Virus record (IMG/VR): IMGVR_UViG_3300028833_002847
Source: a virus
DNA: 55,153 bases
Reading direction: 5' to 3' (one strand)
Positions 2,994 through 33,445 of the stretch are shown piece after piece (the stretch's first letter is position 1; every line of letters begins with the position of its first letter). A program made the position numbers and the translations under genes. The notes under the pieces were generated by a model. The model searched no databases. It was not told the origin of the DNA and saw only the letters and a list, made by a program, of their open reading frames with translations.

Positions 2994-2994
2994 A

Positions 2995-4640: not shown

Positions 4641-4650
4641 AAATAGACAT

Positions 4651-4692
4651 AAAAAAAGAGGGGTACTCAATTAAGAGTACCCCTTATTTTTT
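4651..4692. terminator. bidirectional intrinsic terminator at the convergence of the plus-strand early operon and the minus-strand late module
   Basis: A7 run, then a 10-bp stem gaggggtactc/gagtacccct with loop aattaa, then a T8 run. U-runs on both strands. Confidence 0.75.
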
Positions 4693-6251
4693 TACCATTT
4701 ATTATCATTTAAAGAGCATTGTAAGGCTTTAACAGATTCTCTACCAAAATATCCATCTACATCAATATCGTAACCTTTATTAACTAACCATTGCTGGAGA
4801 GCTCTTGAGGTCCCAGGGCCTCATTGACCATCAACTTCCGCACCAACTTTACTTTGAATAGCTTCAACTAATTGAGAACCAGTTCCGCTATCATATTCAA
4901 CATTATACATTCCTCAATGGTAATCTTTATTTCCAAGCCATTGACCGCTAATAACACCATCTTCATAAGTACCTAATGTGTGCTGTAAATCAATAATAGT
5001 ATTTCATCCACCAATACCATCAATTTCAAGTTTTCCACCATCGCGATTATTTTTTGGATCAGTTGAAACATCTGGTGTGAAATTTCCACTATCAGAATTA
5101 CTATAATGAGGTCTAATAACATAGGCTACGTTACCCATATTACGATATTTTTCTTGTACGGCATTACCAACATTACCTTCAATTGTTGGGAATCCAGAGC
5201 CATCAAAACTTCCTGTTGCAAATCCAATATGGTCAGTAGCTCCATCTCAATCCCAATTAAAGATAACAATGTCTCCATACTGTACATTATATTTATCTAC
5301 AGCATAATTTTTTGCGCCATTATTTAGAGCTAAATCTGTATTATAAGTTGGGAAACCTTTAACTACAACTCCTGCTTGTTCTAAGCATCAACTTACAAAC
5401 ATGCAGCACCATCAAATTTCAACAGAAGGTCCAGCAAGCCAATCTTCATCTCACTTATCAGCCAATCAACGACCATATTTAGAACCTGGTTCAGGATCAT
5501 TAGGAGCATAATATCCTAATTCACCATAAGCAACGTCAATAACACTTTTAGCTGTTCCACTCATTTGTTTACTTTCTTCTTCTTTTTTTTCCTCTATTGG
5601 TTCATCAGTTTGAATAGTTTGTCCAGCAGCTATTCTTGCGGGATAGTCGATACAACACCAATCGCAATCGTGATAACCACTAACATCATCAAATACTATA
5701 TGACCATCAGATAATCTAATTCCGCCTTGCTGTCACATTCCAATATCTCCAGCTTCAGTTGGTCAAGAAGCTTTTCATCAAGCAATTCAATTAGCATAGT
5801 CACGAAGTTCATCTGCATACATATTGTTTAATCATGCATTTCCACCAGTATAAAGTCCTGCATAATATCCTCTATTACGGAGAGTATCGCAAAAAACTTT
5901 AATAACATCAGTTAAAGTACGTGCTGATAACTGGAATTGTCTTGGATCTTCAACATCTGTGTAACAAGGTAAATCAAATTTATGTCCATCAAGTAAATCT
6001 GCAAAGTGATTAGCATCTTTTCTTGAATTTTCTGTATCTGTAGTAACTGTATAATAATATGCTCCAATATGAAGTCCAGCAGCTACAGCTTTTTTATAAT
6101 TATTTTCAAATTGTCCGTCTTTATAACGTCCTAAATTTGTTTCATTTCCACCAGCTTTAATAATAACGCCTCAAAGTCCTCTCTGACGTTTTCAAGCTGC
6201 TAAATCAATATCCCCATCTCAATGAGAGATATCAAGAACAAGTTCTTTCAT
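4692..6251 (-). CDS. endolysin: N-terminal GH25 muramidase, central CHAP/NlpC-P60-like amidase/peptidase, C-terminal PG_binding_1 peptidoglycan-binding repeats (table 4, about 519 aa)
   Basis: SD AGAGGTG. N-terminus LDISHWDGDIDLAAWKR...VIIKAGG. GH25 motifs ANWIAWW and GMWQQGG with the conserved Trp encoded by TGA. Cys/His core ...WWCCMFVSWCLEQAGV...DHIGFATG. C-terminus QWGPGTSRALQQWLVNKGYDIDVDGYFGRESVKALQ. Confidence 0.8.
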
Positions 6252-6280
6252 TTTCCGCACCTCTTTTCTATATAAAAAAA

Positions 6281-6312
6281 GAGTCCCATATTTCAGGGAC
6301 TCTTTTTATTTT
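6281..6312 (-). terminator. intrinsic terminator between the holin and the endolysin
   Basis: Stem gagtccc/gggactc with an 8-nt loop. Followed on the minus-strand transcript by a U7 run immediately downstream of the holin stop. Confidence 0.55.
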
Positions 6313-6601
6313 ATTCTTTTAGATGAGCAGGCTGCTTTTTTAATTCATGCATTAGTATGTCTGCTTGAAGAGCGGGTTGAGTAAAACTGTTATTCTTCCA
6401 TCAAGCGATAATAGAAGCTACAACAACAGCAACACCTGAAGCAATTTCATAAATATTGTTTTCATCAATATCAATAGGAGTTCACCCAAGTAAAGCGCAA
6501 AAAGCATTAACTAATGCAATAAATAGAACAATGGTTCTAGCAATAGTCCCAGGTTCAATTGAAAGCAATCCGTCTAAATTAATTGTTTTTGCTTCAGCCA
6601 T
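6311..6601 (-). CDS. holin (LL-H / phi-LC3-like class, about 95 aa)
   Basis: SD AAGGTG. Charged N-terminus. Two hydrophobic helices (IARTIVLFIALVNAFCALLGW and ASGVAVVVASIIAWW). Polar C-terminal tail. Directly upstream of the endolysin. Confidence 0.65.
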
Positions 6602-6627
6602 TTAAAACACCTTCTTTAATTAATTAA

Positions 6628-7428
6628 TTATTCTCCAGTTCCGCTTCCACCAGCGACGAGTGCATCAATCTCTGCATTAGTAGCAAATGTAATATCTGCA
6701 TCTAAGACATATGGAGAAAGATCAACGAAGCCAGGAAGTACATCAAATTTATAAGCAGGAGACTGACCAGTTGTGTCAGTATCAACAACAACTACATTGG
6801 TTCCAGCAGGATAAGTCTTAGTTACTCCACTAGCATATTCAACGAAGTCACTAGTAATAGTAAAGGAGTCAGTAACATTATAAACGTTACCAAGAACACC
6901 AACAGCTAGAGTTGGTAGACTTGCAAATGCTACAGAACCAGCAGGCTTATAAACAGTAGCAATCTGAGCAGCTACAGTGTCATCAACATAAGTTTTAACA
7001 GCTGCGCCTGTTGGAAGTTTAGCATCATTAGCAAGTGTAGTCTCAACGTCTTTATAAGCAGCAGCGTCAAGACCATGAACGGCTACATCTGAACCATTAA
7101 CAGCAACAGTACCATTTGTAGCACCTTCGGCAACTGTAACATTAACTTTCTTGGTTGTGCTATCAGGAGTTAAATCTGTAGCATTAACTTGGACACCAAG
7201 AACTGGAATTGTTACGTCAACCTTTTTGTTAGCATCAGGAGTTAAGTCAGTACCATTATATTGAACACCAAGAATTGGAACTTCAACATCAACAGCACCA
7301 TCAGCATCCTGTGTTAGAGCTGTACCATTACACTTAACAGTTTTTACTGCACCAGCAGGAGCAAATGTTTCTGTAGCTTTCTGCCATAAACGTTGAATAC
7401 CAGCCCAATCAACGAGTTTCATCGCCAT
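6628..7428 (-). CDS. Ala/Val/Thr/Gly-rich repeat protein, probably a virion structural or decoration protein
   Basis: SD AAGGGTGA. Internal repeats VDVxVPILGVQxNxTDLTPDxxKKV. No TGA. Noticeably GC-richer than its surroundings. Confidence 0.45.
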   Translation of the reverse strand: MAMKLVDWAGIQRLWQKATETFAPAGAVKTVKCNGTALTQDADGAVDVEVPILGVQYNGTDLTPDANKKVDVTIPVLGVQVNATDLTPDSTTKKVNVTVAEGATNGTVAVNGSDVAVHGLDAAAYKDVETTLANDAKLPTGAAVKTYVDDTVAAQIATVYKPAGSVAFASLPTLAVGVLGNVYNVTDSFTITSDFVEYASGVTKTYPAGTNVVVVDTDTTGQSPAYKFDVLPGFVDLSPYVLDADITFATNAEIDALVAGGSGTGE

Positions 7429-7445
7429 ATAATCACCCTTTCTTT

Positions 7446-8078
7446 CTAATTACCTTGTATAATTTCTTCTATTTCATCATCTGTAACAGCTCTAAATCCA
7501 AAGTCCTCTAATGTTTGATTCCCTGTAAGTTCAACTCCATTAATAGAAGGTTTGTTTGTAACATAAAGATAATCTGTTACACCTTCGAGTTCAACTTCTT
7601 CTAATCATTTTGTAATATCTTCTACACTTTGATTCATAACTATTGCAGCTTGTGAAAACAAATTATAATCATCAGAAGCAATAAATTTATCTAAGTCTAT
7701 TGGGTCTGCGGAAATAGTAACTTGAAAATCATCTGTTCCAATTAAACTATTATTATCAACTTTTTCAATTTTACAAATAATATGTCCTTCTTGAATCATT
7801 TTTGATGGTCAAGCTATTTCTCAGACTGGATTAATTTTTAAAGTTTTATCTCCAACTTCAATACAATTAAATACATTATAGCCTTGAATATCTAATTCTT
7901 GATGATGCCATTTTAAATAAATTTTAGTAGAAGAAGTAAAAACAGAAGCAGCTTCTTGAGAAAAAATTACTTTTAATTTTTTTCCATTAATATCATTGCC
8001 ACTAAATATCATATCTTCTATTGGTTGATAAAAAGATTTTATTTCTAAAATACAAGAAGTTAATGATAACATATTCAC
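7446..8078 (-). CDS. hypothetical protein (about 210 aa; fragments 7821-8078 and 7605-7799 joined across TGA; real stop TAG at 7446-7448)
   Basis: Fragments share a frame and were joined manually across two TGA codons. RBS AGGAAGAGGTG. The start may be GTG 8078 or ATG 8072. Confidence 0.5.
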
Positions 8079-8100
8079 CTCTTCCTTTAATCAATTCTCA

Positions 8101-8148
8101 CTAAAATTATTATAAAATAGGGCATCTTACTTTTTGTAAAATGCCCTA
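8101..8148 (-). terminator. intrinsic terminator after the giant LRR gene
   Basis: Stem tagggcat/atgcccta with a U-rich tail on the minus-strand transcript. Confidence 0.5.
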
Positions 8149-8155
8149 AATTTTA

Positions 8156-11100
8156 TTAATTTTGTTCTGGAATATAGAAGTAACCTTTATCTGTATTATT
8201 ATTAACAGAGCCATCTTTACGATAAGCAATATAAATAGTATGCGGGATTCCTTCCAAATTCTCAAATTTTGCTTCTTTATAATTCATATTAGAATTACCA
8301 TAAGTATTATAATTATAATTACTAGTAGTAGGTTGAGCATCTATTTTCATAATTAAATAGTCATAATTGGATTCTCCATATGAACAATATTTAATGATAA
8401 ATGTATCATATCCATCAATATTAATCATACAAGTATCAGTAGTATTATGTTGATTTGTATGTTTACTACTATAATATACTGTATGACCATCTACTTGAGT
8501 TCCACTATTAGCTCATTCATCATTATTAAGGTCTATAATATATTCTTGTTGAATTAATATTACTCTTAATATCTTTGTAGCAGTTATACTATTATTATAA
8601 ATACTAGTAGCTGTAATAATTAAAGTATCTCCATCAGAAGCATTTACTAATTTAACTAAACCATTAGTATCAATAATAGCGTTACCTTCAATAGACCAAG
8701 TTACTCCACGATATTGCGGGTCAACATCAATACTATCATCTGGGTCTATATAGACAGGAGTTAATTGAGCAACTCTATCATAAACATCTTGTTTATAACA
8801 ATTGATAGTTTCAATATTGGAATCTAATCTTATAGATACTAATTCTTTATCAGAGCCATCTTTAAAAGCGCTTAAAACATTTTTTCATTGATAAGCTGCT
8901 TTATATGTTGGGAATAAGCTTAATGGAATATAAATAGAGGTTACACCAGTAGAAGAAAGATATGTATTAGTATCTGAATTAAAGTTTTTAAATACTCCAC
9001 GAGCATAAATTGTTCTAAGATTTGTCGCATATCTAAATATTTCTGATGTAGAATTAACTGCTGAAAAATCTCAACCAGAAATATCTATTGTATTTAATTT
9101 ATCACAATAATAAAATAATCCATATAAATCTGTGACTGTTGAGAATGTTCATTTAGACATATCGAGTTCAGTAATTGCTCTATCATATCAAAACATTTGT
9201 CTAATAGTAGTAAGATATGGAGTATGCATTTCTCCAAAATGAATACTTGTTAAACTAGGATTGTTTGCAAACATAGCTTGCATTGTAGTAACATTTGTTA
9301 CATCCAATAGATCAAAGTCAAAAGTTTTAATTCTTGTTTCATTAAAAGCATGACTTAAACTAGTAATTTGTGAGGTTTCACTATTAATAATATCAAAAGA
9401 GCCAATCTGATAACGACCACTTAAAGTAATATAAGTTCCACTAAAATTATTAAATGTAATATTTAATGTACCAGCGCTAATATCATTCATAGTAGAAATA
9501 ATGGTACTAATTCTACCGCAATCACTACAATTAATAAATTCTGTATTGGTAATTTTACTATCATAACGAAACATGTTAGATACATTTGCGGAAGATGGTA
9601 TATGTGGAATAATAACACTCGTTAAATTTGAACAATTTGCCATTGAATATTGTAAATTATTAATTTTATCAACAGATAATTTTGTAGCATCAAGAATTGT
9701 CATTTTACCTTCATAGAAAGCATAATTAAAATTACAGTCTGCTTGTTCTCGCATATTTCATTTTGAAGTATCTAAAATAGTTAAATAAGGACACATATGG
9801 AAACAATATGTATAATTAGTTACATTTGAAAAATCCATATTAATATCTTTAAGATTATGAATTCCAGTTCCCGCATAAGCATAATTTAATGAATTAGGTT
9901 TATTTCTTTCATGAATAATAATTTCTCCATTGTTATTTTCTACTCAATTAACCATATTAATATTTTTAATTCTAATAGCACTTCTAATAAATTCATTAAA
10001 ATTATTATTAATAGTACCTTCAACAATTAAAGTAATAAAACTATTACTATTATTAGCTCCATTACAAATTCATCTAATTAAACTATTTCCACCTGTTCAA
10101 CCATTACATTCAGAAAAATAAATATTTTGAAGAGCAGAACAACCTTTTAAACAATCAGTGGCATAGCCACTATCATAATCATAAAGTTGCTTAGCATTCC
10201 TAAATTCAATTGTGTCAAGAGTAATACAATTTTCAAACATATGAGTCATATGTAAATAATAAGCTCGATTAGCAACTACTAAATTTGGAAATTCTATATA
10301 ATCAATAGACGTACATTCTGCAAACATATAATCATAATAAATATCTGTTCCTTTATTAATATTCATATTATAATTTTCAGGGAAAATAATCTTTTCAAGT
10401 AAACCACATTGATAAAACATATATCTTGAATCTTGAATTTTAGTAAAATTAGAATAACCAATATCTACAGTTACTAAATTAACACATCCAGAAAACATAT
10501 ATTGAGTATTATTTACATTTCCAACATTTCAAGTAGTCATATTTATTTCTGTAACAAATACTTCCATATTATTAGCTATAGTTCCAGAATCTTCCATAAA
10601 TTTAATTTTAGTTATGGCTCTACAATTTTGAAACATGCAAGACATATTAGTTATAGGAGAAGTGTCAGCATCATTTGTGGTTGTTGTTAATCTAAATCAA
10701 TCAATATAATCTAATTCATAACAATTTTGGAATCAACCTTGCATACTAGTAATTCCAATAAATTTAGAATATTTTAAATTAATAGATTTTAAAGCTCAAC
10801 ATCCAGTAAATAAATATTGAGCACCAGAACTACTTAATTCAACAAAATTTACACTACTTAAAGTTAAATTTGTTAAAGAATGACAATTAATAAACATTCT
10901 GCTAATATTAGTAGCTCTACATGGATTAGTAAATAAATAATTAATATTTAAAGTTTCAAGAGCATAACAATTTCCAAACATATATTCTAGACTTCTACCA
11001 CCAACTCATGGGCTAGAATTATTATTTTGTCCAACTCTTGTAAATGAAACATTGTGTAAGTCTAAAGATTTTAAAGCTCTACAATGATTAAACATACTTT

Positions 11101-14100
11101 GACAATACATTACATTAGAAAATAATCAGCCATTATCTCCTTGATGTGTATTAATTTCTTCAAGAGCATAACAATTTTGTAACATACAGGTTGTACTATA
11201 AGCGCCAATCATATTGAAATGTTGATTTAAAGTTTTTAAAGCATAACAATGTTGAAACATGTATTGGAAATTGGTACATTTTTGAGAAATAAAACTATCA
11301 GGAAAAGTTAATTCTTCAAGAGCATGGCATCCTTCAAACATCCCGTCAACTCTTTGAAGATTTGCTCCTCCAAAGGTTTCTGGAATTCTAATTGATTGAA
11401 GAGCATAACATCATTGAAACATTCTTTCTGCACTAGTATTATTTATCATTGTAAAAGTATCTGGAAGATATAATTCTTCAAGAGACTCACAATAACAAAA
11501 CATATACGTAGCATTATCTCCACTTCATAAAGAAGTATTAAAATTAGGAATCAAGAGATGCTGTAATGATTTACAATTATAAAACATTTGATAAAAATCA
11601 GAACATTTAATAGTATTAAAACTTGTTAAATCTAACTCTTGTAAAGATTGACAATCATAAAACATTTCATACATTGTAGTAACATTTTCTGTTGAAAAAT
11701 TACTAAAATCTAAAGTTTCAAGTTTAGTACATGCATAAAACATTTCAGAAAAAGTAGTTACTAAATCTGTATTTAATGGAGTTAAATCAAAAGTTACTAA
11801 AGAAGAACAATAACAAAACATATTAGCACAATTAGTTAAACTGTGTCAATATTCCATACCACTAATATCTAAAGTAGTTAAATTAATACAATCATAAAAT
11901 AAATTAGATACATTTTTAATACTTTGTCCTTGAGCCCCTCATGTAGACATATCAATAGTAGTACCTCTATATCCTCTAAATAAATTAGCAATACTAGTAC
12001 AAGTATTAATATTTCACTCTTCTAGATGAAGATCAACACTACTACCACAATAAGTTCCGCCTATTGATTTTCCTGCTAAATAGAAAGTATTATCTCTATA
12101 AATAACTCTTTGTAATGCTGAGCATCCTCAAAATTGAGCCTGAATATTTTTAACATGTTCAGTCCAAAAACTAGAAAGATTAATAGTTCGAATAGTATTA
12201 GCATTTAAAAACATTACTGCTCAATTAATAGAAGTAGTTGTTTCTTGAATATTTCATTGAGACAAATCTACACTAGTTCCCTTATAGCCACTAAACATTG
12301 CTACAAAACTTGTTTGCTGTGAAACATCTCAATGACCAATATTTAAAGGAATTTTAATATTATAAAACATTTGCCCAACTGCTGTATAATATGTATATCT
12401 CATACTTCCATTAGTACCAGTATCAATTCATCTTGTAGAATAGTTTTCATTACTTCAATAATCAATTGAATTAGCCTTCATTATAAATGAATTTGTTTCA
12501 AAAGTTTTAAGTTTAGAACAATTATAAAACATAGCTTCAAAATTTACAACTTTAGAAGTATTAAATGTTTGAATTTTTAAAGTAATTAAATTAGTACATT
12601 CAGCAAACATTTCTGCCATACTTGTTCCTTGAGAAGTATCTCAATTAGAAAATATTAATTCCGTACCTTTATAACCATAAAACATTCTAATAAAATATTT
12701 CATTAAAGAGGTATTAAAAAGAGTCAAATCATGAATTTGTCCTATACTTCCATTGAACATGTCTCTAACATTTACACTAGAATGGAACTTTCATTCATTT
12801 GTTATATACAAATCCTGTAAATTAGAGGTTCCATAAAACATTTCTGACATATTGGTACAAAATTCAATATTAAAGTCTGAAAGAGTAATTGTAATTGCCT
12901 TACAGTTATAAAACATTTGTGACATATTAATACAAGATTCGGTATTAAAATCTAAAAGAGTAACTGTAGTTGCTTTACATTCTCTAAACATCTGCGACAT
13001 ATTGGTACAAACTTCTGTATTAAAATTTGAAAGTGCGATTGTAGTTAATACAACATTTGTATTATAAAACATTTGATACATTGTTGTTACATGAGAAACA
13101 TCTCAAGTAGAAATATTAATTTCTGGAAGAAAACATCCACCAAACATATAAGTCATATCTGTAACTGAAGAAGTATCCCAAGTATTAAATAAAATTCAAG
13201 GAGCATGTACATCTGCAAAAGTATTAATCATATTCTGTACAGAAGAAATATCTCAAGTAGATAAATCTAATCCATTAGTAAAAGTAGACAGCCTAAACAT
13301 AGCTCTGAAAGAAGTAATATTAGAAACATTTCAATTTGCAACGTTTATATTTGTAAAAGTTGAACGATACAACATTGCTCTTAAATTAGTAATATTACTA
13401 AAATCTAAATTTTCAGCTTCTAATGTTCCAATAGTAGAATCATAAAAGAAACTAAAATCACTATCTCAACTAAGAATATTTGTTAAACTAGTAATATCTC
13501 AATCTGTAATATTAATTAAATTTGCAGTACATCCTCTAAAAATAAATTGCATATTAGTACAATTACTCATATCTCAGGTTCTTAAATCTAATTCAAGACT
13601 AGATGTTCCCATTTCTCTAAACATACCACTAGCATTTAAAACTTCACTAGTATCAAGAATATCTAATCCTTCAATAGACTGCAAACCTTTTAATTTATAA
13701 AACATATTCATACTATTAGCATTTAAAATAATAGGTGCTGCAACTTCAAAAGTAATAGTAATTGTTCCAGTATCATTATCTCAATTAGCTACTACTGGAG
13801 AACCTTGAGAACCAATAGCAATACCAGATTTTTGAATACCATTTTCAAATATTATATGTTTAATTTTAGTATCTTCAAAATTACCATCTGTAACATTACT
13901 TCCATTTGCCATACGTTTAATAGTATAAGAAAATTCACCACCAGAAATTAATCTAGAATTATATTTTTCTGGAAGAAGCGGAAAATCATAATATGTTTCT
14001 ACTTTAATAGGAATATCTTCATTTCAAACAGTATACATATTTTGAACACCAGTATACATATCTTTAGGAAATTGCATTGGATATAAAACTATATTGTAAT

Positions 14101-17100
14101 CTAAGTAAGTAGAAGAGACATAGAAAAACGCTCTATCCTCATTTGAATCAACACTACCATCCTTACGATAAAGTAAAGTAATAGTATGCGGATTATCATC
14201 ATAAATTTCATATACAACTGTAGTATATGTCGTACTTGGTTTTCCATAAGTATGATATTCACAATTAGAAGTTGATAATCCAGAAGTTTGATCAAGTTTA
14301 CTAACAATTAAATAATCATAATTTGATTCTCCATTAGAACGAACTCTAATAGAAAATCTTGAATAACCTTGTATAGTTAAATAACAATAAGCATTTCCAT
14401 TAGCAATATGATAGTTAGAATTACTTTTATAAATTTGAGAACCATTTATAGCATTATCACCATCTTCAATCCATTGGTCATTTAAATCAATAGATCAAGA
14501 AGCATCAGATAGGTGTTTAATAGAATATCCTTCTATTTCTGCATTTCTAGCAGTATCATAAAATTGTCCTATATCCATTTGCTGCATAGCTAAACAATTA
14601 TATAAACCATTTTCTTTTTCAGTATAATTAAATAACGTTCTATGTTTGCGGAAATCGAGGTATGTCATACTTTCACAACCAGAAAAAATTTCTCGCATAT
14701 CCCGCAAATAATTAGAACATAATAATACTATATTAGTTTCAATAGTTTTACAATTCATCATCATTTGATAAGCTGAAACGACGGTATTAAAAATAATTTC
14801 AGGATAGCGCTCTTGTTTAATTTCTATTAAATTATAACAATTCTTAAACATTTTATCAGCATTTTTAATATACATAAAAGGAAATACTTTAGTAACTAAA
14901 TCATAAGTAGGAGCTGCACCTGTAGATTTTGTTCCTTTTGGTCAAATAATTTTTTCAAGTTCATAACAATTTTCAAACATTGATGACATATTACCAATAT
15001 TTTCAGATGTTAAACCAAGATTTCCATTATTATTATATGGTAATCCGGTAGCTTGAGCTAAATTATGATAAGTTTGGAACATCCAAGTACTTAAATCAAT
15101 TTCTTGTAATTTTCTACAATCTTTAAATATTCTAACAAATCAATATTTTTGACTATTACTAGTATTTTCAGAAGGAGAATATTCAGTTGTAGTACCTCTT
15201 CAATCACCAAATTTTAGATTAACTAAAACTAAATTTTCAAGATTATAACAACCATCAAAAGTTCCTTCAAATTCTTGAGTTGTATTATAATTAGTAATAT
15301 CTATAGGTCTATCATTTGGAAATTTAATACTTGTAATTTTATGACAGTTATAGAAAGTTTCTTTCAATGAAGTTAATTGAATATCATAACCGCCATATTG
15401 ATGCCAACTCCTATTACCTCCAGTAATTCAATTATAACCAGCATTTGGATTTGTTTTAGGAATAAATTTAGAAAAATCCATTTCCATTTCTAAATTTTTA
15501 CAATTATAGAAAGTTTGACTTAAATTTCATAAAACCATATTTTGAGAACCATTACTTGATTTATCAAATTGACCATTAGTAGTAATACTCTTTAAGTTAG
15601 TAATATCAATTAATGATTCACAATTATAAAACATTTGTTTAAATTGATTATTAGAATGTCTATCAACATAATAAGTTCAACCACCACTTGGGGTATAATA
15701 TCTCCTAAATGCTAAATTAATTTTTTCAGGTAGGATAATATGTTTAACATTTATACATTCTTTAAACATTCCTTCATAACAAGGACCATTAAAAACATTT
15801 GAATATTTTAAATTAATTTCTTCTAAAGATTTACAATTATAAAATAAATAAGAATAATCGTATAAATTTGTAAAAAAGAAATATTTTAAATCTAAACTTT
15901 GTAAAGATTCACAATTATAAAAACATCTACCTACTAATTCAGTTTTTCTTCAATAAGCACTAAAACCAAGAGATTGAGCATACTGTCCATGTAAATCTGT
16001 AATTGTAATTAAGGATTTACAATTATAAAAAATTCTATCAAAATTACAATATAAATAACAATTAGACATATCAAGTGCGGGAAGAGATTCACAATTTTCA
16101 AACATACTAGCAGCTTTTACAAGACGTCCATGAAATTCCATTTTAACAAAATCTAAATTAATTAAAGATTTACAATTACAGAACATATAAGAAACATCTG
16201 TGACACCTCTTGTTCTTCATCTATCAAAAATAATAGATACTAAAGATTCACAGTTTAAAAACATTTGGTTTGTAGAATATAATCACGGACTTTCAACATC
16301 TCCCATATCCAAAGATTGGAGATTAATACAGTCTTTAAACATTTTCTTAATATCTCTAGCCATATGCCAATTAAAATTAGATAAATCTAATTGAGTTGCC
16401 AAACAACCCTCAAATAAATTATTAAAATAAATATTTTCTTTATTAAATTGTGCGGTCAATTGCTCATAAATCACATCTGGCAACCAAGCAAAAATATAAT
16501 CTTTCTTCCTTGGGAATATAATTGAAGAAATATCAATTTCTCTTAAATTATTACATCCAGTAAACATATATGACATATCTTGAACATTAATTGTATTAAA
16601 ATTAGATAAATCTGCAAAAAGTAAGGAAGCACAATTATAAAACATATAAGACATATCTATAACATTATTTGTATCAAAATCTTTAAAATCAATTAAACTT
16701 AAAGATTCACAATTACTAAATAAATGTGTCATATCTGTTACTTTAGAAGTATCTATATTTTCAGGAAGTATAAGTTCTTTAAGATTTTTACATCCATTGA
16801 ACATATATTCCATATCTATAACGTTAGAAAAATTAAAATGAGATAAATCAATATAATCAAATAATTCACAATTATTAAACATATAACTTGTATCAGTTAA
16901 TGTTTGTAATTCTAAATTAGATAAATCTACAGTAATAAGCGAAAAACATCCGTCAAACAAATGAGAAATATTTGTAATATTTTCCCATTGAATCTTATTG
17001 AAATTGTTTATGCGTCGTAATTCCCGCATATCATAAAAAGTATATTCTGCATTATCTCTAATTACAAAATTTTCAGCTCTGGTTTGAATAATAATTTTTT

Positions 17101-19930
17101 TAGTGTCACTATTATAATAAATGTATGGCCCAACATATTCTATATCATTAATAGTAGTTATATATTGAGTACCATGTGGACTAACAATTCTTGTTCTAAA
17201 GTCTATACTTTTAATTTCTTGTAAAGAAACACCTTTAGTTGCAGAATAATTTTCTATCATATTCCGCAATGCCATCCCTGAATAAAATATATTATTATCA
17301 AAGCCATATGTTCTTTCTAGCAGCTCTTGGGTTACAGCTCTTTCTCTAATATATTTTCCAGGCCCATCAATTAAACCAGTAACATTAATATTAAAATTAG
17401 GAATAATACTTTCTTTAGTAGTATCATATTTTGATAAAATAACTTCGTTATCATTGTTAAGAGGAAGCTTATATCAAGGTTCATCCGTTGTTAATTGTTC
17501 ATAACCATCTGTCTTTTCATAACTTTTATTAATTATAACAACATTTGCTGTTGGGATATAATTTTTTAAACATTTTCTTAAAGTAGAATTATAAGATTTT
17601 GTTGCTCTATTAATAGTTTTCATTCTTCCTCAATCAACATCTGAGAAATTAATAGAACGTAAATCTGAACAACCTTTAAACATAGTATCTAAACCATAGA
17701 TATAATATCAATCATAATATTTCTCATCATATCCTCTATGTGTTTTTCTATAATTAGTTATATCTTCAAGATATATTTCATCACAAGGATCTTGAAAAGG
17801 AATTAATTCTTCTCTTGTAACAACAGGATTCATTTTAAAATTAGTAATATCAGTTAATCTCTCATCATCATTAAACATATATGCATAATTACAACAATAA
17901 CTAGTATTAATTTTTTCAAAAGAAAAATCTTCAAGATAAATCATTCCAGAGAACATACCAGAACCATCTGCTGGAATATAAAATTCATTTTCTGGTGTTG
18001 CTACAATTAATGTTTTAGTATCATGGTCATAATCTCATGTTAAACTATTAGAATAAACTTTTTTACTATATTCATCTACTCTAACAACCAAACTATTAGG
18101 AAGCGGGAATAATACATTCGTTCTTCATTCTATATGTTTTATTACTTTTCCAGCAAATTGTTTACTAAAATTTTGACCTAAGAAATTATGCATAGAAGGA
18201 TATTCATAATAAGGCTCTGGTTTGACTATACAATCTTCTCTAATATATCTACCTATTTGATGAAGATTTAATTGATAAGTTCTAATACCAGTATTTTGTT
18301 CTATCATATAATATGGTAAAGCTAATCCAATATCTTTTAAATATCCATTTCTATTTTGGTCAAGACCTAATAAACTAGAAGCAGCATCTTTATTCATTCC
18401 TGCATCAACTGCTAATTTAAATAAATCTTGCATATAAGCTTGTACGTATTTGTCTTGAATATAATCACTATATGGAAGATTTACTGCTGGAGTATATTGA
18501 CTATTCATATTAGTAAACATACCCTCTTGTACCATATTACCAGTAGTTAAATCCATTACTTCTTGAGTAACTACTTCCGTATATGACATTCTTCAATCAA
18601 TACGAAGTCCAGCTTCTACACTATTTAATAAATCATATCCTGGCACTCCACTAATATTATATCCCATAAAGGCACTACTAGAAGTCATTGTATTAACTTC
18701 TGTATAAGTAGTAATACTAGGTTTAATTCCTTCAACTGTTTGAAAATCTTGTCGTGGACTATAAGCATCATAATGTGCAATTTGTCATCCATTTACACTT
18801 AACATAGTTCTAGAACCTGTTAAAATTTCTTGTAAATTTCAACAATTATGAAAAGGAGAATTTACATGCAATGTTTCTTTACCAGAATAGAAGAAATTAA
18901 TTCAATTAGTTCAATCAATTTTCTTTAATTGGTAACATTCAGAAAACATTCCTGAAATATTATTAATTGAAAAAACTGGACTATCAAAAGTAAATTCTTC
19001 AAGAGAAATACAAAAATGAAACATAAAACTTACATCTTTAAGAGATGGAACTTTTCAAAATAAATTTCTAGGATTTGTTTTTAAACTATAACAATGAGAA
19101 AACATGTTTTTCATTGAAACCAAATTTGGAGCAAATATAGGTTCAATATTAACAGTAGTTAAATTAGGACAATATGCAAATGTTTCTTGCATATATGTAA
19201 CTTTACTGATATCAATACCCTGAAGATTTGCTTCTACGAGATTTGGACATTCAGAAAACATTTGAGTCATATTACTAGAACGTAATACTTTATCTCCATA
19301 AAATCTAAAATTAACAAATCCACATTGAGAAAACATTCCAATCATTTCACACTCATGATAAAAAGTTGGAAGTTTAACCTCAACTAAACAAGAACAATTT
19401 TTAAACATTCAATTTAAAATTCTAACATTGGAAGCGTCTCAAGAGGTCAAGTCAATTGTATTAATACTTAAACAACCTTGAAATCAACCCTGAAAACTTT
19501 TAACCAATGAAGTATCTAAATTACCTATATTAAAGATAAGTCATAATTCACTCATACCAGAAAACATATTGGTCATATCTTCTGGAACTACAACTTTTCC
19601 ATTAAATACAATATTTTTAATTTCACTATTATAAGCAGACCATGGATTAGTAAGATATTCTTCTGATAGGTAGGTAACTTTATCAGGATCACCAATTACT
19701 AATGTCCCATGGTCTGTAATAGCCCAAGGACAATCACCATTATATCCAGAATAAAGAATTTCTCCACCTCGAATATATTTTTCAAGGTCAGACATTTCTT
19801 TTCCTGGAAGGTCATCAATAGCAGAAGAAAATTCGTAAGGCATATAGGTTTCATCTCGCCCATTCTTCTCACGAATAGCATCTGCAATATCCGTTAAAAC
19901 AGATTTTTTAATAAATACTTCTTCTGCCAT
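8156..19930 (-). CDS. giant BspA/DUF285-type leucine-rich-repeat protein (about 3924 aa in table 4). Candidate receptor-binding or tail-associated protein, apparently a fusion of two ancestral units.
   Basis: At least 15 listed ORF fragments between 8156 and 19930 share one frame. I checked the junctions at 9754-10097, 14075-14495 and 17275-17708 and found only TGA, no TAA/TAG. Start ATG 19930 with RBS AAAGGAG. Stop TAA 8156-8158. Roughly 24-26-aa repeats of the form L..LDLS.F.TSNVT.M..MF..C..L, with WD.S variants where W is TGA. An internal non-LRR domain sits at 18125-18589. Confidence 0.55.
12840..13075 (-). repeat. three tandem ~78-bp DNA repeats (about 75 percent identical) encoding consecutive LRR units
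   Basis: Visible tandem units, each ending ...aacatttgtgacata / ...aacatctgcgacata / ...aacatttgatacat. Protein repeats FNTE(V/S/F)CTNMSQMF..C. Confidence 0.55.
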
Positions 19931-19942
19931 TTTATCTCCTTT

Positions 19943-22900
19943 TTAATTTGGGTAAATTACTCTATAAGTATCTGCTACATTTGCGGGAATATCGTATGTA
20001 ATTTCACCAGTTGTTTGACTTTCATATCTAATATCAGGACTGGCCGCACTAGCTCTTTTATTAATACTAAATTCCCTATTAGCATAAAAATACATTTCTA
20101 CATTATCTCCCATAATAATTTTATCTAATAAATATCCACCATCTTTACCACTACTAGCAGATAAAAAATAAGTTGTTGTGGGAGCGAAACCTTGATTTAA
20201 TTCAATTTCTAATCCAGATAAATCAAGAGTTTTAATACATTCACATCCTGTTAAAGCATAACTAGCATTAACTGTAATAGTAGGTCTATAAGAACCTTGA
20301 TAAACTTCAACAGAATCTTTTAATTTAAGAGGTAATAATTTAAAATAATTTTCTTCTCCATTTGGACCAACTTGGTCTAATCCTAATCTTCTACAATTAT
20401 AAAACATTTGTTCCATATTATTTAATTCTAATGGCTCCATATTTTGCGGGAAATCAACCCTTCTAAGATTAATACAGTTAGCAAACATATAAGCCATATT
20501 TTTAATAAGAGTAGGATTCAATTCTCAAGTAGAAATATCTACACTATATAAACTAGAACAATATCTAAACATTTGAGCACAAGTAGTTAATGCTCCTACT
20601 GCTCATTGCGGGAAAGCAAGATTTTCTAAACTTGAACAATTTAAAAAAGCTCCTTGTAAGTTAATAAAAACAAAAGATGAAGATGTTTCAGGTTGATTAA
20701 AAATATGTAAATTAGTACAACCAGAAAACATTTCTTGTCCAATAAATGCTTGTCTAGGAGCTTGATTAAAAAATGTAATCTCATTTAACATTGTACATTT
20801 TTCAAGAATATTTCTAATATTCGTACAACTATATAGATTTAATGGCCGCAAATCAATTTCTTCAAGATAAGTACATCCTGAAAACATATAAGACATATTA
20901 ACCACATTCTTTGTATTAAAAGTAGATAAATCAATTTGAGGCAATGTTTTACAATTCTGAAACATATAACTCATATCAGTGACCCGCACAGTAGTAATAT
21001 CATTAAATTCTATTTCAATTAATCCTGTAAATGATGCAAATAACTTTGCACTATTGGGAGCAAAGAAAATTAATCTATTTGGAGTAAATACACTAAGTTC
21101 TCCACTTTCTATATCAAATGCAGCATAAGCTCCTGCATTATTATAATAATCTCCTACAGCTACATAGAAATCTAAATCAAATAAATCTTCGTCCATATTA
21201 GCATCTGTAGCATAAAAAATAATTTTTCTTACTTGACTATCTACTGTAGCAGAAGTAGTTTTAGTATTGCTCATATCATCATTAATAAAGTTTTTAATTC
21301 TTTTATTAAAGTTCTCTCCATTAGTTAAACTACCACAACCATAATATACGTCTCCACCATCTGGAACTATCGTACCTATAATATAAATATCCTCTGCTGT
21401 TATAACTTCTTCAAGACTTGCAGAATACATATTAACTGAGAATTTAATAGATTTTTCATTTTGAAAATAAGCAATATCATAACCTTGTGGAATAACCAAT
21501 GTTCTAATACTACCACAATTTGTTAACATATCAGTAGCATTAATTGAGCTATTTGGTAAACCAGATGTTGAACTACCATTAAGAATTAAATTACTAAAAT
21601 CAACTTCTTTTAATCTATAACAATTTTGTAAAAATCCTGTAAAATTAGTTACACTATATGTACTAAAAGGTAAAACAAATTCTGTAAATTGAACACAATT
21701 ATTAAACATATTTGACATATTTTTTACTCTAGAAGTTGTTTCAAAAGAATCAAAGAATGTCATATTCTCTCATTTTAAACTAGTACATCCTTGAAACATA
21801 CTAGCCATATTTGTAACATTATCCATATCAAAATTAAATAAATCTATTCCAGTTAAATTACTACAATTTTGGAACATACCACTCATATTTGTTACATTTG
21901 AAGTATTCCAATAGGTGAGATTTAATTGATTAGAACCTTTTCAATTTGCAAAAAAACTAGCTAAAGAAGTGCGGGCAGAGACATCTCAATAAGTTGTATC
22001 TATTTCCGCAGGACAATTTCTTCAAAAATTGCCAAATGGAACATCTTTAGTAATAACTCATCCAGCACCAGTTTCTACTTTTTCTAGAGAAGTACATCCA
22101 TCAAAAAATGCTTCTAAAGAAATTGTTACACCTGATAAGTTTAATTTTGATAAATTTATATTTTTTAAAGAAGAACAATTTGCAAAAACAAATCGAGCAA
22201 AACATAAAACAGAAGTTGTTTCTCAATTACTGCAATCAAGTTCTTCTAATTTTTTACAATTATAAAAAGCATAATTTAATACAGATAATTTTTTAAGATT
22301 AGAAAAATTTTGGTATATATGAATTAAATTTTGACATTCATTAAAAGTATAGTGAAAAGTTGTTAGATTTCTTCCATCTCCAATTGAAGTTAAATCTACT
22401 TCAACTAATAAAGAACAATTATTAAACATTGATTGAAGAGATTCTACTGATTGCATATTAGATGGAAACTCAATAGCTCTTAATTGAGAACAAGAATTAA
22501 AAGCTGAATCAAAATATTTAACATTAGAAAAATCATTTTGAGAAAAATCTATTGCTGTTAAATTTGTACAATTTCTAAATAAACCTCTCATATCTATTAC
22601 ATTAGAAGTATTAATATTTTCAAAACCTAAAACTAATCAAAGAGAATCTAGTCCTCCAAATAAACCCATAATAGAAGTTTGTACTTCTATTGGTTCATCA
22701 ATAATAATTAACCTAATATATTGTCTATAATTATATCAATAAGACCAATATAAAGTTTCTGTAATATCTTTCTTTTGAGCCACATTTCAACGACTATAAT
22801 TAGAACCACCATTAATTCAAATATTACTAGTATTTGGTTCAGGTAATTCTCCACCATGAATAAAAAGAACACCTTTTCTAGAAATTTCTCATCTACATGT

Positions 22901-23503
22901 GCCAATAGTACCAGAATATAAAGGTTCAGTTTCTTTAATAAAAGATGATAAAAATACATCTGTATCAATTAAATCTATTGCGGGAGCCATCTCAGAAGGA
23001 GTATAAGTATCTTCAATTCCTTCTAATTTATATCTAATAGCATTTGCAATATCAAATAAGTCTTGCTCTTTTACAAGAACAAGACTTTCAGGTTTACTAT
23101 TTTCAACTACTGTATAAGCATAAAAATTTTGATTAGTTGTTATATCAGTAGTATAATCAAAAACTAAAGTATGCGCTCCTTGCGGGACTTCAATAGTTCC
23201 CTCTTGTAAACTTGAAATATTACCATTTCCAGCTTTATAAGAAATAATCTTTCCATAAACATTAAGAAAAGCTATTCCTCCTAAAGTAGAAGAATTTTGG
23301 AAACCATAATATAATGTTTTTCCAACTTGAGTAGTAATATCTGCAAAATAATAATTTCATAAAGAAGAATTTTGAGTGGTACCAGCAGCATAATTAGTAC
23401 CACTTCATTCTCCAGATTTAACGAGGTAAATAGCTCCAGAGACTATAGGAGCATCCTTTAAAATATTTATGTGTTTTGCATAAGAATCTCCGCTACCAGC
23501 CAT
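19943..23503 (-). CDS. BspA/DUF285-type LRR protein paralog B (about 1186 aa, table 4)
   Basis: Start ATG 23503 with RBS AAGGAGG. Real stop TAA 19943-19945. Fragments 22223-22591, 20603-21763 and 19943-20521 share its frame. Has a ~150-aa N-terminal extension, then the conserved module ...LFDIANAIRYKLEG...LYSGTIGTCRWEI shared with A and C. C-terminal module ends ...ADTYRVIYPN. Confidence 0.6.
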
Positions 23504-23513
23504 TTAACCTCCT

Positions 23514-26500
23514 TTAATTATATTGAATTGTATAAGTATCAGCTATATTTGGTGGAATAGCATTAAACTCTTCATTATTAGTATTAACATAAGTAATTAA
23601 TGATGTGCTTGGCTCTCTAGCTGTAAAGTTCTTATTACCAACAAAATAAGCACCAATTAAATTACCAGTAATAATTGTATCAAGAGCATATCCACCTTGA
23701 GCACCAGTTTCAGCAGTTAAGAAATCTGTTGTATCTGGTAATGCATTCGTGTTATTTCTATAAAGACCCATCTTAGAGAATTTATAAATATATTCTCTAC
23801 CATCTGAAACTTCAGCCAAATAAATAATACAATATACGGTAGTACGATTACCACTGTTAAAATTAACAAGATATTCATAAGATTGTTCTGAAGCCATATT
23901 ATTAAAATTAACACTACTAACAATAGAATCTGAAATACCACCTTGATAATTAGATGCACTTCCCGCAATATAATATCTAGCATTTCCATTATATCCACTA
24001 GGAGTATTAAAAGCTAATGAAAAAGTATAATTTGTATTAGCAATAACAGAGAGTGGTATAACAATTTTTTCATATCCGCCACGTCCTGTTAACTTCATGG
24101 TATTTATATCATTAACATTATCATACTCATTATTAAAATTAGTATTTGCATAATTATCAATATTATAACGATTTCAATTATTAATATTCTTTTGATTTGC
24201 AGTTAATAAATTAGTATTATCTAATGTTTCAGTAGAAATAATATTTAATTTACTTAAGTCTAATTCTTTAATTCCTTTACAACCAGCAAGAACACCTTTA
24301 GCATTAATTCTTGTAGTTGAATTACCAGAAATAACATTTTGTAGTAGGAATCCTGGTAATGTAAATGCACTTGGAATAAAACTGTATTCTTCATTTACTA
24401 ATGTTCTGGTAGTCCCAAGTTTCTCACAATTTTGGAACATATAAGAAATATCAGTAGGAATTAAAGTAGGCATATCAATTGGGAATTTAATAGAATAAAG
24501 ATTTCTGCAATTTTGGAACAATCTTGGTAATTTCTTTAATACATCATTATCAAATTCTCAATCTTCAATATCTATTGTTTCAAGATTAGTACAATCAGCA
24601 AAAATATAAGATAATGAACTTAATCCTGTAACATTTCAATTATTTAAATCTAAGCTTGTTAATGAACTGCATTGATAAAATGCTCCATCTAAATTAGAAA
24701 AATTAAATAAACCATTTGTTGCTGGTTGATTAAAAGTAGATAAACTTGTACATCCAACAAATAATTCTTTAGCATTCAAAGGATTTTGTCCAACTTGATT
24801 AAAGAAAGTTAATGTTTCAAGTTGATTATCATTCATAAACATTGTTTCAATATTCGCAAGAGCATTTGTTTCAAAATAAGTTAAATCAATACTCTTTAAG
24901 GATACACAATTATTAAAACAATTCTTAAATGATTGATTCTTAGCTGTATTAAATAAAGTAAAATCAAATGATTCCATTGAACGACATTCTTGGAAAGCAC
25001 TTTCAAAAGTAGTAACTGAATAAGTGTTAATATAGGCAAAGTTAATTTGTTCCAATGCCCGCATTCCTCTAAATAAGCTTTCACAATTCTTATTAAATAA
25101 AATAAATCGTTCATTTGTTACTATTGTCATAGTAGCTGTTTCTTCATCTCACTTAGCATAAGCTCCAGCTCTATTATAGTAACATCCAATCCCATACCAA
25201 CTACTATCATTTTCAAAGAATTCTTCATTTTGATCTCCAGTAGCAAGTTGGAAATTAATAATTTTAATATTAGAATCCATTTGACTATAGCTTGTAGAAC
25301 TATAAGCGATACCAGAAGCGAGATATTTAAGATAACCATTAACTTCTCTACCAGTAGAAAGAGCTCCACAACCATAATATGTTTTTAATCCAGTATAAAT
25401 ACCTCAATCCATATCATAAATTTGTTCTGGTAAAATGTCTATACTAGCATTAGCTTCATACATATAAATTGGGAAGCATGGTTGATATCAAGTATAAATA
25501 TCTGTTAAAGTATATAAATTAGTTTCTACTTTAACTGGTATAAATAAATTTGAATCATAAGAATTACCAACATATAATTCTCTTAAATTTGAACAATTCT
25601 TCAACATATTTTGAGCGTTAATAGAATGAGCTTTTGCAGTTCCATCGTCATTATCTGCTCCATGTAATATTCAAGTTGTTCAATCAATACTTTTTATTTG
25701 ATAACAACCTTGTAACATTTTTTGATAATTAGTTACATGATAAGTACTAAAAGGAAAATGAAACTCGTTAAATAAAATACAATTTTCAAACATTGATTCA
25801 ACATTAGTAACATTTCTTGTACTATCAAAATCATAAAAGAAAGTAATATCTTCAAGTTTTAAATTTTTACAATTATAAAACATATAAGATAAATCTGTAC
25901 ATTTAACAGGCTCAAAACTAAAAATACTAACACCTGTTAAATTAGTACAATTTCTAAATAACGACTTCATATTTAAAGCATTTGAAGTATCTCAAAGAGT
26001 AAAATCTAATATTTGATTACCTTTCCAATCTTGGAAAAATGCTTCAAAACTTTGTAATGCTGAAACATCTCATTGTCTTGTATTTAAATAAGCAGCACAA
26101 TTAGCAAACATTTGTTGAACATTTGCATTAGCATTAAATACTCAACCATTATTTGTTTTAATTTCTCCAAGAGCAGTACAACCAGAAAAAATTTGATTTA
26201 ATGTAGTAGCTCCTGAAATATCAAAACCAGATAAATCTAAAACAGTTAAACAAACACAATTTTGAAATGTTTGTTGTAAATTTGTTAAAGCATTGGTAGT
26301 AATTCATTTAGAACAATCAAGATTTGATAATTTTGTACAATTTCTAAAAGCATATCTTAAATTTTGTAATTTAGATAATCTTTTAAATCTAGTAGTAATA
26401 CTTCCAAGTGCGGGACATCCATCAAAAGTACATTCCATATTAACAATATTTCTTCCTTCATCCAAAAAAGAAATATCAATTTTATCTAATAATACACAGG

Positions 26501-29206: not shown

Positions 29207-29218
29207 CTATCCTCCGTT

Positions 29219-31462: not shown

Positions 31463-31465
31463 AAA

Positions 31466-31504
31466 TTAATAAAAAAGTGGGCAAAAAAATTCTACATTTT
31501 TGCC
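31466..31504 (-). terminator. intrinsic terminator
   Basis: Minus-strand transcript forms GGGCAAAAA-loop-UUUUUGCCC followed by ACUUUUUUAUU. Lies 15 nt after the stop (31519) of the upstream gene. Confidence 0.55.
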
Positions 31505-31518
31505 CAATCTACAAAGTT

Positions 31519-33177: not shown

Positions 33178-33197
33178 AGCCTCCCTCTTTCTTTATT

Positions 33198-33410
33198 TTA
33201 TTCTACAGATTCTTCTTCCTCATTTTCTTCAGGCTCTTGGACTGTAATAGCTGTAATAAATTCTTGGAAGATATCATCTTTAAGTTCAACTAAATAACTA
33301 TTAACAGCATCTTCCATCATATAAGCTGGAACCTGATTTTGTTGTCTAATTGAAGAAAGAACTCTTTTAACCATTTTTTGAACTTCTAATCTTAATTGTT
33401 GTTCTACCAT
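33198..33410 (-). CDS. small acidic protein (70 aa), unknown function
   Basis: Strong RBS AAGGAGG. Complete ORF with a Glu-rich tail. Confidence 0.5.
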   Translation of the reverse strand: MVEQQLRLEVQKMVKRVLSSIRQQNQVPAYMMEDAVNSYLVELKDDIFQEFITAITVQEPEENEEEESVE

Positions 33411-33445
33411 GAGAACCTCCTTGTATCTCTAAAAACCTTATTTAT

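What the first reader, a model, noticed from the sequence alone, without database searches (positions are those of the whole stretch)
14075..14270. The giant LRR gene appears to be an in-frame fusion of two complete units
A segment inside the 3924-aa gene (...NGESNYDYLIVSKLDQT...LLYRKDGSVDSNEDRAFFYVSSTYLDYN) is clearly homologous to the extreme C-terminus of the same gene (...YGESNYDYLIMKIDAQPT...IAYRKDGSVNNNTDKGYFYIPEQN-stop). At the internal copy the frame continues without a stop into a second ~1980-aa LRR unit. This suggests a lost stop, a gene fusion or a recombination product, and a modular cassette architecture.
Basis: seen in the sequence. Interest (0 to 1): 0.55.

Follow-up and report, generated by a model that had tools for sequence, protein, structure and literature searches.

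The report
Giant phage adhesin, duplicated binding domain
A 3924-residue phage tail-region gene (read with TGA as tryptophan) carries two diverged copies of an unnamed sugar-binding-type domain, one in the middle and one at the end; it is one intact, conserved mosaic gene, not two complete genes joined by a lost stop codon.

Summary
In the 3924-aa ORF (8156..19930, minus strand, TGA=Trp), residues 1807-1938 match the C-terminal residues 3792-3920 at 41% identity (E~3e-24), and nothing else in the protein matches.

The repeated unit is a ~125-aa CUB/MAM/CBM-like beta-sandwich ("X"). It belongs to a large family (>1000 clusters) with no Pfam or NCBIfam model. In that family X is usually C-terminal after BspA/DUF285 LRRs, but it is often internal, N-terminal or multi-copy.

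"Fusion of two complete units" is only partly supported. The internal X and its upstream LRRs do resemble the C-terminal end of stand-alone LRR-X proteins. Against it:
- The second half lacks the N-terminal anchor motif shared by the three tandem LRR paralogs.
- The second half starts with a linker homologous to mid-gene linkers of a paralog.
- No Shine-Dalgarno sequence or start signal lies after the junction.
- The halves are not colinear.
- The two X copies are old (66% DNA identity) and are not each other's closest relatives.

A hidden stop is excluded. A 97.8%-identical contig and a 99.99%-identical contig keep the same open frame, with dN/dS ~0.19.

Verdict: an ordinary, anciently assembled modular phage adhesin or receptor-binding-type protein. 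The mildly novel point is the unnamed X domain family.

The parts
8156..19930 (-). Giant gene, 3924 aa, read with TGA=Trp (62 in-frame TGA). SD AAAGGAG lies upstream of the ATG. DUF285/BspA-type LRR protein.
   Evidence: same 3924-aa product called on ENA contig L002
19748..19930 (-). N-terminal ~61-aa motif (L..IADAIR.K.G..Y.P.E....AI) shared with the two upstream LRR paralogs. Putative virion or baseplate anchor; present only once in the giant.
   Evidence: profile hit only at aa 1-61, E 1e-31
14507..17134 (-). LRR array 3 (aa 933-1808), which abuts the internal X domain. Arrays 1 and 2 lie at aa 85-379 and 643-804, with non-LRR segments of unknown fold between them.
14108..14494 (-). Internal X domain (aa 1813-1941): CUB/MAM/CBM-like beta-sandwich. 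Keeps all family signature residues (Y1834, S1836, G1855, E1868, D1872, Y1921, K1923, D1924, D1932).
13766..14092 (-). Post-junction linker / LRR lead-in (aa 1947-2055). The tested segment aa 1947-2110 is homologous to internal inter-array linkers of paralogs (g23514 aa 556-728). No RBS or start signal.
8867..13765 (-). LRR array 4 (aa 2056-3688, with a short break at 3277-3318).
8549..8707 (-). Weak Ig-like segment (aa ~3742-3794; aBig_2 E 6e-4, below Pfam cutoff) between the last LRRs and the terminal X. Part of a C-terminal cassette (aa ~3540-3924) shared at 31-36% identity with many stand-alone proteins.
8162..8536 (-). C-terminal X domain (aa 3799-3923), followed by the stop codon at 8156-8158.
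19943..23503 (-). Upstream DUF285 LRR paralog (1186 aa) with the anchor motif at aa ~138-200. No X domain.
23514..27167 (-). Upstream DUF285 LRR paralog (1217 aa) with the anchor motif at its N-terminus. Its mid-gene linker (aa 556-728) matches the giant's post-junction segment.

Best explanation
The 3924-aa ORF is one genuine, translated gene of a TGA-to-Trp recoded tailed phage. The source-like contig is at least 148 kb, and the lysis genes suggest a Gram-positive host. The gene is the third of three tandem DUF285/BspA-LRR genes that lie between the baseplate/fibre genes and the holin-endolysin cassette.

The protein is a mosaic. An N-terminal ~60-aa motif is shared with the two paralogs and is inferred to dock the protein on the tail or baseplate. 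Four LRR solenoid arrays follow, plus two diverged copies of a ~125-aa CUB/MAM/CBM-like beta-sandwich (X). One X sits directly after array 3 at mid-length. The other sits at the tip, after array 4 and an Ig-like spacer.

X is a shuffled ligand-binding module of a large unnamed family whose default position is C-terminal to LRR or BACON regions. The internal copy is most likely the relic of an old in-frame concatenation: an 'LRR-X' end joined to the middle of another LRR array (linker + array + Ig + X), probably by recombination among the tandem repeat-rich paralogs. That join has long been fixed as a single ORF.

Inferred mechanism: the protein acts as a very long tail-attached adhesin or receptor-binding appendage with two lectin-like binding sites of probably different specificity.

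Shown: the reading frame, the recoding, the domain homology, the fold class, the family architectures and the purifying selection. Inferred: virion attachment, ligand binding, and the order of historical events.
For: Recoding and frame. Five TGA<->TGG swaps versus L001.

Frame intact in contigs from other sources: L001 at 97.8% identity gives 3923 aa, with 102 synonymous and 68 nonsynonymous codon differences and one 3-nt indel. L002 at 99.99% has a called 3924-aa product.

dN/dS: 0.19 overall, 0.14 for aa 1-1806, 0.28 for aa 2061-3790.

Domain homology: E 3e-24.

Family: 1030 representatives at E<=1e-3. Of 179 instances, 98 are C-terminal, 52 internal, 15 N-terminal and 14 alone; 21 proteins are multi-copy.

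Partners: LRR_5, BACON, DUF285, Sipho_Gp37.

Phage tail context of X elsewhere: L003 next to Phage_tail_C and a Peptidase_S74 fibre; L004 has an LRR-X protein with X at the C-terminus; P0259 combines a Gp10_C-like part with X.

Junction: the left flank is colinear with stand-alone C-terminal ends. The right flank matches a paralog mid-gene linker, and there is a single anchor.

Context genes: tape measure, baseplate, holin and endolysin.
Against: There is no direct evidence that the protein is in the virion or binds anything; PHROG matches for the paralog g19943 are all 'unknown function'.

No relative with the unfused state at this locus was found, so the historical fusion is inferred only from architecture. 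L-X-L-X was not seen in any other of the 150 representatives, so neither precedent nor intermediates exist.

X is internal in 29% of instances, so a simple domain insertion is not excluded.

dN/dS of the X_int+linker segment is 0.46 on only 11 changes, which is uninformative.

Family position counts may be distorted by proteins truncated by standard-code gene calling of recoded genomes.
Confidence: 0.7

Rival explanations
1. Recent in-frame fusion of two complete neighbouring genes by loss of a stop codon. Unit 2 would formerly have been an independent gene with its own start.
For: X is C-terminal in 55% of family instances, and LRR-X is the dominant architecture. The internal X plus upstream LRRs align with ends of stand-alone proteins. 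The locus holds tandem LRR genes only 10-12 nt apart, so a small deletion could fuse neighbours.
Against: Unit 2 has no anchor motif and begins with a mid-gene-type linker. No remnant RBS or start is present. The copies are only 41% aa / 66% nt identical and are not nearest relatives. The two neighbouring paralogs do not end in X. The frame is conserved with purifying selection on both sides in a 2.2%-diverged relative.
Confidence: 0.08
2. Domain insertion or intragenic duplication: an X module was copied or inserted between two LRR arrays of a pre-existing single long gene, with no end-to-end gene fusion ever occurring.
For: X is a mobile module: 52 of 179 instances are internal, 21 of 150 proteins are multi-copy, and tandem arrays of up to 7 occur. 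X-LRR-X and X-LRR architectures exist. PARCEL/DUF285 genes are described as prone to intragenomic shuffling (PMC2996958).
Against: Similarity of the internal copy to other proteins extends into the upstream LRRs, and those proteins terminate after X. This favours import of an 'LRR-X end' block rather than X alone. The two copies are not each other's closest relatives, which argues against simple intragenic duplication.
Confidence: 0.2
3. Assembly or sequencing artefact: repeat-induced misassembly joined two LRR genes, or an error hides a stop at the junction.
For: The gene is highly repetitive at the protein level, and metagenomic assemblies can collapse repeats.
Against: The same colinear structure appears in an ENA contig and an IMG/VR contig besides the window, one of them 2.2% diverged with only a single 3-nt indel across 11.8 kb. 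DNA repeats within the gene are only 60-84% identical and at most 126 nt long, too diverged to cause collapse.
Confidence: 0.02

Closest known systems
DUF285 / PARCEL / BspA-family LRR surface proteins (Pfam PF03382, PF13306; Roske et al. 2010, PMC2996958), including giant phage examples such as Vibrio jumbo phage pir03 ORF200 (19,254 nt; PMC7765460)
   Same: 25-26-residue repeats (75-78 nt spacing). Strong PF03382 and PF13306 hits in both halves. Very large ORF in a large phage. Variable, shuffled repeat tracts. tblastn finds DUF285 LRRs in 75 deposited phage records.
   Different: This protein carries two copies of an unnamed beta-sandwich domain, has a phage-specific N-terminal motif shared with tandem paralogs, is TGA-recoded, and has no lipoprotein or membrane-targeting signal that I examined. 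No deposited phage matched the X domain or the junction.
CUB / MAM domains and beta-sandwich carbohydrate-binding modules (e.g. VesC C-terminal domain 6bqm, RPTPmu MAM 2v5y, C1s CUB 1nzi, CBM61 2xom)
   Different: Sequence identity is only 9-16%. There is no significant sequence match to any PDB chain and no Pfam or NCBIfam hit. Ligand and metal binding are unknown.
Modular receptor-binding proteins / tail appendages of phages of Gram-positive bacteria (lactococcal RBP head domains, neck passage structures, BppA-type CBM decorations)
   Same: Position between baseplate genes and the lysis cassette. C-terminal beta-sandwich binding module. Foldseek hits to BK5-T RBP head, neck passage structures and tail proteins. 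Mosaic divergence between strains.
   Different: The shaft is an LRR solenoid of thousands of residues rather than a trimeric coiled or beta-helical fibre. There are two binding modules, one at mid-length. Trimerisation and virion attachment were not shown.
TGA-to-Trp (code 4) recoded gut phages (Borges et al., bioRxiv 10.1101/2021.08.26.457843)
   Same: In-frame TGA throughout the structural and lysis genes, and TGA<->TGG swaps between strains.
   Different: No suppressor tRNA lies in this window. Clade membership was not tested.

Membership tests
DUF285 / PARCEL (BspA-type LRR) repeat proteins | Tandem ~25-residue repeat matching PF03382 (and PF13306 LRR_5) above the gathering score | tested here: met
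   PF03382: 187 bits (first half) and 381 bits (second half) against a cutoff of 25. LRR_5: 84 bits against 27.7. DNA repeat spacing 75-78 nt.
DUF285 / PARCEL (BspA-type LRR) repeat proteins | Dyad symmetry (palindromic character) of the coding repeats, as defined by Roske et al. 2010 | not tested
   Only direct repeats were searched.
X-domain family (unnamed; defined here by profile A1/A3) | Full-length match to the ~125-aa profile with signature residues Y, S, G, E..YD, Y.KD, D | tested here: met
   Both copies match: E 4e-50 and 4e-42. All 9 nearly invariant positions are kept in both copies.
CUB / MAM / CBM beta-sandwich superfold | Jelly-roll beta-sandwich topology superposable on solved members | tested here: met
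CUB / MAM / CBM beta-sandwich superfold | Sequence-level membership of a named family (Pfam CUB, MAM or any CBM) | tested here: not met
   No Pfam or NCBIfam hit on the domain. PDB phmmer gives only chance hits.
   The anchor profile hits only aa 1-61. The post-junction segment matches mid-gene linkers. No SD-like motif is present.
   Close relatives L001 and L002 are fused. No more distant relative of this locus was found. An unrelated recoded phage has a stand-alone LRR-X gene.
Phage receptor-binding / tail fibre proteins | Encoded in the tail module and physically part of the virion tail | tested here: inconclusive
   The gene order is tape measure - baseplate-like genes - fibre-like gene - 3 LRR genes - holin - endolysin. 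Virion presence cannot be tested here, and PHROG hits for the paralog g19943 are 'unknown function'.
Code-4 (TGA=Trp) recoded phage | In-frame TGA in conserved genes at Trp positions | tested here: met
   62 TGA in the giant gene and 17 in the endolysin. Five TGA<->TGG interchanges between strains.

The most novel reading that the evidence does not exclude
X is a previously undescribed, very widespread lectin-like (CUB/MAM-type, possibly Ca2+-dependent) receptor-binding domain family of gut phages and bacterial surface proteins. On this reading the phage's 3924-aa LRR protein is a dual-specificity tail appendage that presents two diverged X modules, one at mid-shaft and one at the tip, to engage two different host or mucosal glycans. 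It would have arisen by in-frame capture of an LRR-X cassette.
Probability: 0.3. Interest if true: 0.5.

Novelty: new member of a known kind. Interest (0 to 1): 0.3.

Why it matters
For annotation, the result shows that the giant ORF is real and that this genome must be read with code 4. Standard-code calling shatters the gene into dozens of fragments, and database entries for this domain family are visibly polluted by such fragments.

For biology, it adds a concrete case of how phage adhesin or RBP genes grow by concatenating LRR-plus-binding-domain cassettes. It also flags a large domain family (>1000 clusters at 50% identity) that has no Pfam or NCBIfam model and that recurs in phage tail modules and next to BACON/BspA repeats. 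Defining that family would improve annotation of many gut phage and Bacteroidota/Bacillota surface proteins.

It does not reveal a new mechanism such as reinitiation, programmed read-through or a cassette-switching system.

Tried and rejected
- Table-11 ORF calling found no giant ORF, which led to the recoding diagnosis.
- Megablast of the gene against deposited phages found no match.
- The word-indexed protein search with the internal domain gave no hits.
- PDB sequence search gave only chance antibody hits.
- A two-sequence AF2 model was unusable at pLDDT 45; it was replaced by a 47-sequence MSA model.
- The search for related loci with baseplate-region protein g31519 found no relatives.
- tblastn of the junction region against deposited phages matched only generic LRRs.
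- A DGR-type hypermutation explanation for the divergence patches was rejected: substitutions are balanced transitions, not adenine-specific.
- Internal promoter, terminator or RBS at the junction: none above background.
- Long near-identical DNA repeats as recombination substrates: none, all 60-84% identical.
- Extra X copies in the paralogs' additional beta-rich segments: none.
- The alternative parse [anchor+LRR]+[X-LRR-X] was considered because X-LRR-X proteins exist. It is disfavoured because flank similarity extends to the left of X_int, not to the right.
Full report
OBSERVATION

With the bacterial code the window has no giant ORF. Stop-codon counts per frame show that long minus-strand stretches contain no TAA or TAG but many TGAs. 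Treating TGA as sense gives an ORF at 8156..19930 (-) of 3924 aa, with 62 TGA and 11 TGG codons and a good Shine-Dalgarno sequence (AAAGGAG) before the ATG.

BLASTP of the last 134 residues against the rest of the protein gives a single significant hit: aa 1807-1938 versus 3792-3920, 41% identity over 133 positions, E 3e-24. Every other match has E>0.2. The finding's coordinates (14075-14270 = aa 1887-1952) cover the second half of the internal copy and the junction.

IS THE OPEN FRAME REAL?

Two contigs from other sources answer this.
- L001 (IMG/VR UViG_3300028591_004246) is 97.8% identical over 16.3 kb. It encodes an uninterrupted 3923-aa ORF.
- Relative to the window, L001 has 102 synonymous and 68 nonsynonymous codon differences and a single one-codon indel. 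It also shows five TGA<->TGG interchanges, which demonstrates directly that TGA is read as Trp.
- L002 (ENA ERZ27257202, 148-kb contig) is 99.99% identical to the window, and its own gene call is a 3924-aa product.
- NG86 dN/dS is 0.19 for the gene, 0.14 for aa 1-1806 and 0.28 for aa 2061-3790. Both halves are therefore translated and constrained.

A hidden stop, a sequencing error or a misassembly is thus excluded for practical purposes. DNA repeats inside the gene are only 60-84% identical and at most 126 nt long.

WHAT THE REPEATED UNIT IS

A two-copy profile (A1) searched exhaustively against 1.84 billion cluster representatives found 1030 proteins at E<=1e-3 and 427 at E<=1e-10.

Among the best 150 proteins there are 179 domain instances: 98 C-terminal, 52 internal, 15 N-terminal and 14 essentially stand-alone. 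Twenty-one proteins have 2-7 copies.

No Pfam or NCBIfam model covers the domain, and no source names it. Partner domains are LRR_5 (20 of 63), BACON/BACON_2 (13), DUF285, Sipho_Gp37, Flg_new and Big_2.

Nearly invariant residues (Y, S, G, E, D, Y, K, D, D) are kept in both copies. I call this domain X. It is best read as a ligand-binding (lectin-like) module. That reading is an inference from fold class and context.

CONTEXT

Read with code 4, the minus strand encodes, in order:
- a virion structural / tail-tube-like protein;
- a 3011-aa tape-measure-like protein;
- large baseplate-region proteins;
- a 679-aa fibre-like repeat protein;
- three tandem DUF285 LRR genes (23514..27167, 19943..23503, 8156..19930);
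- two small genes;
- an SPP1-type holin;
- a GH25+CHAP endolysin.

The three LRR proteins share a ~60-aa N-terminal motif.

X also occurs in tail modules elsewhere:
- as a 169-aa protein next to Phage_tail_C and a Peptidase_S74 fibre (L003);
- fused to a T4 Gp10_C-like piece (P0259);
- at the extreme C-terminus (718-860 of 860 aa) of an LRR protein in another TGA-recoded ~163-kb phage (L004).

ARCHITECTURE OF THE GIANT PROTEIN

- aa 1-61: anchor motif
- aa 85-379: LRR array 1
- aa 380-642: unknown fold
- aa 643-804: LRR array 2
- aa 805-932: spacer
- aa 933-1808: LRR array 3
- aa 1813-1941: X (internal)
- aa 1947-2055: linker / lead-in
- aa 2056-3688: LRR array 4
- aa ~3742-3794: weak Ig-like segment
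- aa 3799-3923: X (C-terminal)

TESTING 'FUSION OF TWO COMPLETE UNITS'

For the idea:
- LRR-then-X at the C-terminus is the dominant architecture among DUF285-bearing family members (about 44 of 53). L-X-L-X occurs only in the giant.
- Alignments of the internal copy to other family members extend leftward into the LRRs in 11 cases and rightward in 1. The leftward cases include proteins that end within a few residues after X (P0076, P0047, P0142).
- So aa ~1510-1946 looks like the end of a stand-alone LRR-X protein.

Against 'complete' and 'recent':
- The anchor profile hits only aa 1-61, even with all filters off.
- The segment after the junction (aa 1947-2110) best matches the mid-gene inter-array linker of paralog g23514 (aa 556-728, E 4e-5), then that of g19943 and the giant's own aa 565-688. 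It does not match any N-terminus.
- The halves share only out-of-register LRR similarity of 21-25%.
- The paralogs next door do not end in X.
- The copies are 66% identical in DNA over 184 nt.
- Each X copy has closer relatives in other proteins than its sibling: the sibling ranks 45th of 165 from the internal copy and 9th of 166 from the C-terminal copy.
- No in-frame start at aa 1952-2107 has an SD-like motif, whereas most annotated starts in the window do.
- No terminator and no excess of promoter-like sites occur at the junction.
- None of 50 internal X instances in other proteins is followed by anything resembling this junction.

CONCLUSION ON ORIGIN AND MECHANISM

The gene is a single, fixed mosaic. 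The most economical history is an old in-frame join of an 'LRR-X end' to the interior (linker + array + Ig + X) of another LRR gene, probably by recombination among repeat-rich tandem paralogs. A pure X insertion remains possible (about 0.2).

Strain-to-strain differences are patchy. They are dense at aa ~1400-1560, 1700-1800, 2900-3200 and 3800-3900, and almost absent at aa 2100-2600. dS of the terminal X is 0.20 against 0.05 gene-wide. This is typical recombination mosaicism of host-range genes. Substitutions are balanced transitions, not DGR-like.

Functionally I infer a very long tail-attached adhesin or receptor-binding appendage with two lectin-like sites. None of this is experimentally shown.

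COMPARISON WITH KNOWN FAMILIES

The repeat part is a bona fide DUF285/PARCEL/BspA-type LRR (PMC2996958). Giant DUF285 ORFs in large phages have precedent (pir03 ORF200, 19,254 nt; PMC7765460), and DUF285 LRRs occur in 75 deposited phage records. TGA recoding of gut phages is established (bioRxiv 10.1101/2021.08.26.457843). The X domain is fold-related to CUB/MAM/CBM but is not a sequence member of any named family.

VERDICT

The feature is an ordinary consequence of modular evolution of phage adhesin genes. The one mildly novel by-product is a large unnamed binding-domain family.

Noticed in passing
window 4692..54950 (minus-strand genes): The whole structural and lysis module is TGA=Trp recoded. 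Examples: 17 TGA in the GH25/CHAP endolysin (4692..6260) and 17 in the 3011-aa tape-measure-like gene (40839..49874). The genes at 27167..29206, 6628..7428 and 52273..53460 have none. No tRNA gene lies in the window.
   Followed up: partly
window 19748..19930, 27000..27167, ~22900..23090: The three tandem DUF285 LRR genes share a ~60-aa N-terminal motif (L..IA.AIR.K.G..Y.P.EMA.AI). In g19943 it is preceded by an extra ~137-aa beta-rich domain with no Pfam hit. It is a candidate common virion-docking module.
   Followed up: partly
window 27167..29206 (-): A 679-aa fibre-like protein built of many copies of a 'LGGV..D..TI.ID..G.IS'-type repeat. It has no Trp or TGA at all and matches PHROGs of unknown function or 'virion structural protein'.
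   Followed up: no
window 8156..19930 versus L001 14..11785: Divergence between the two strains is mosaic. Dense patches lie at aa ~1400-1560, 1700-1800, 2900-3200 and 3800-3900, while aa 2100-2600 is nearly invariant. dS of the terminal X domain is 0.20 against 0.05 gene-wide. This suggests recombination patches in a host-range gene.
   Followed up: partly
L004 139..10720 and L005 (ENA contigs of 163-167 kb): This is another large phage that is TGA-recoded but was gene-called with the standard code, which shattered its LRR genes into fragments of 60-240 aa. Re-calling with code 4 gives an 860-aa LRR-X protein and a 1333-aa LRR protein. Many database members of the X family (147-202 aa) may be such fragments.
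   Followed up: partly
window 4001..8000: GC content is about 0.34, against about 0.26 in the adjacent LRR genes. The Ala/Thr/Val-rich 266-aa protein (6628..7428) and the endolysin lie here, which may indicate a different origin for this block.
   Followed up: no
window 23514..27167 (-), aa ~985-1140: Paralog g23514 has a ~150-aa beta-rich insertion that is absent from g19943. It has no Pfam hit and does not match the X profile, so it is another unclassified decoration domain.
   Followed up: partly
window 17150..18790 (giant aa 380-642 and 805-932): Two non-LRR segments inside the first half of the giant protein have no Pfam match. Their fold and role are unknown.
   Followed up: partly
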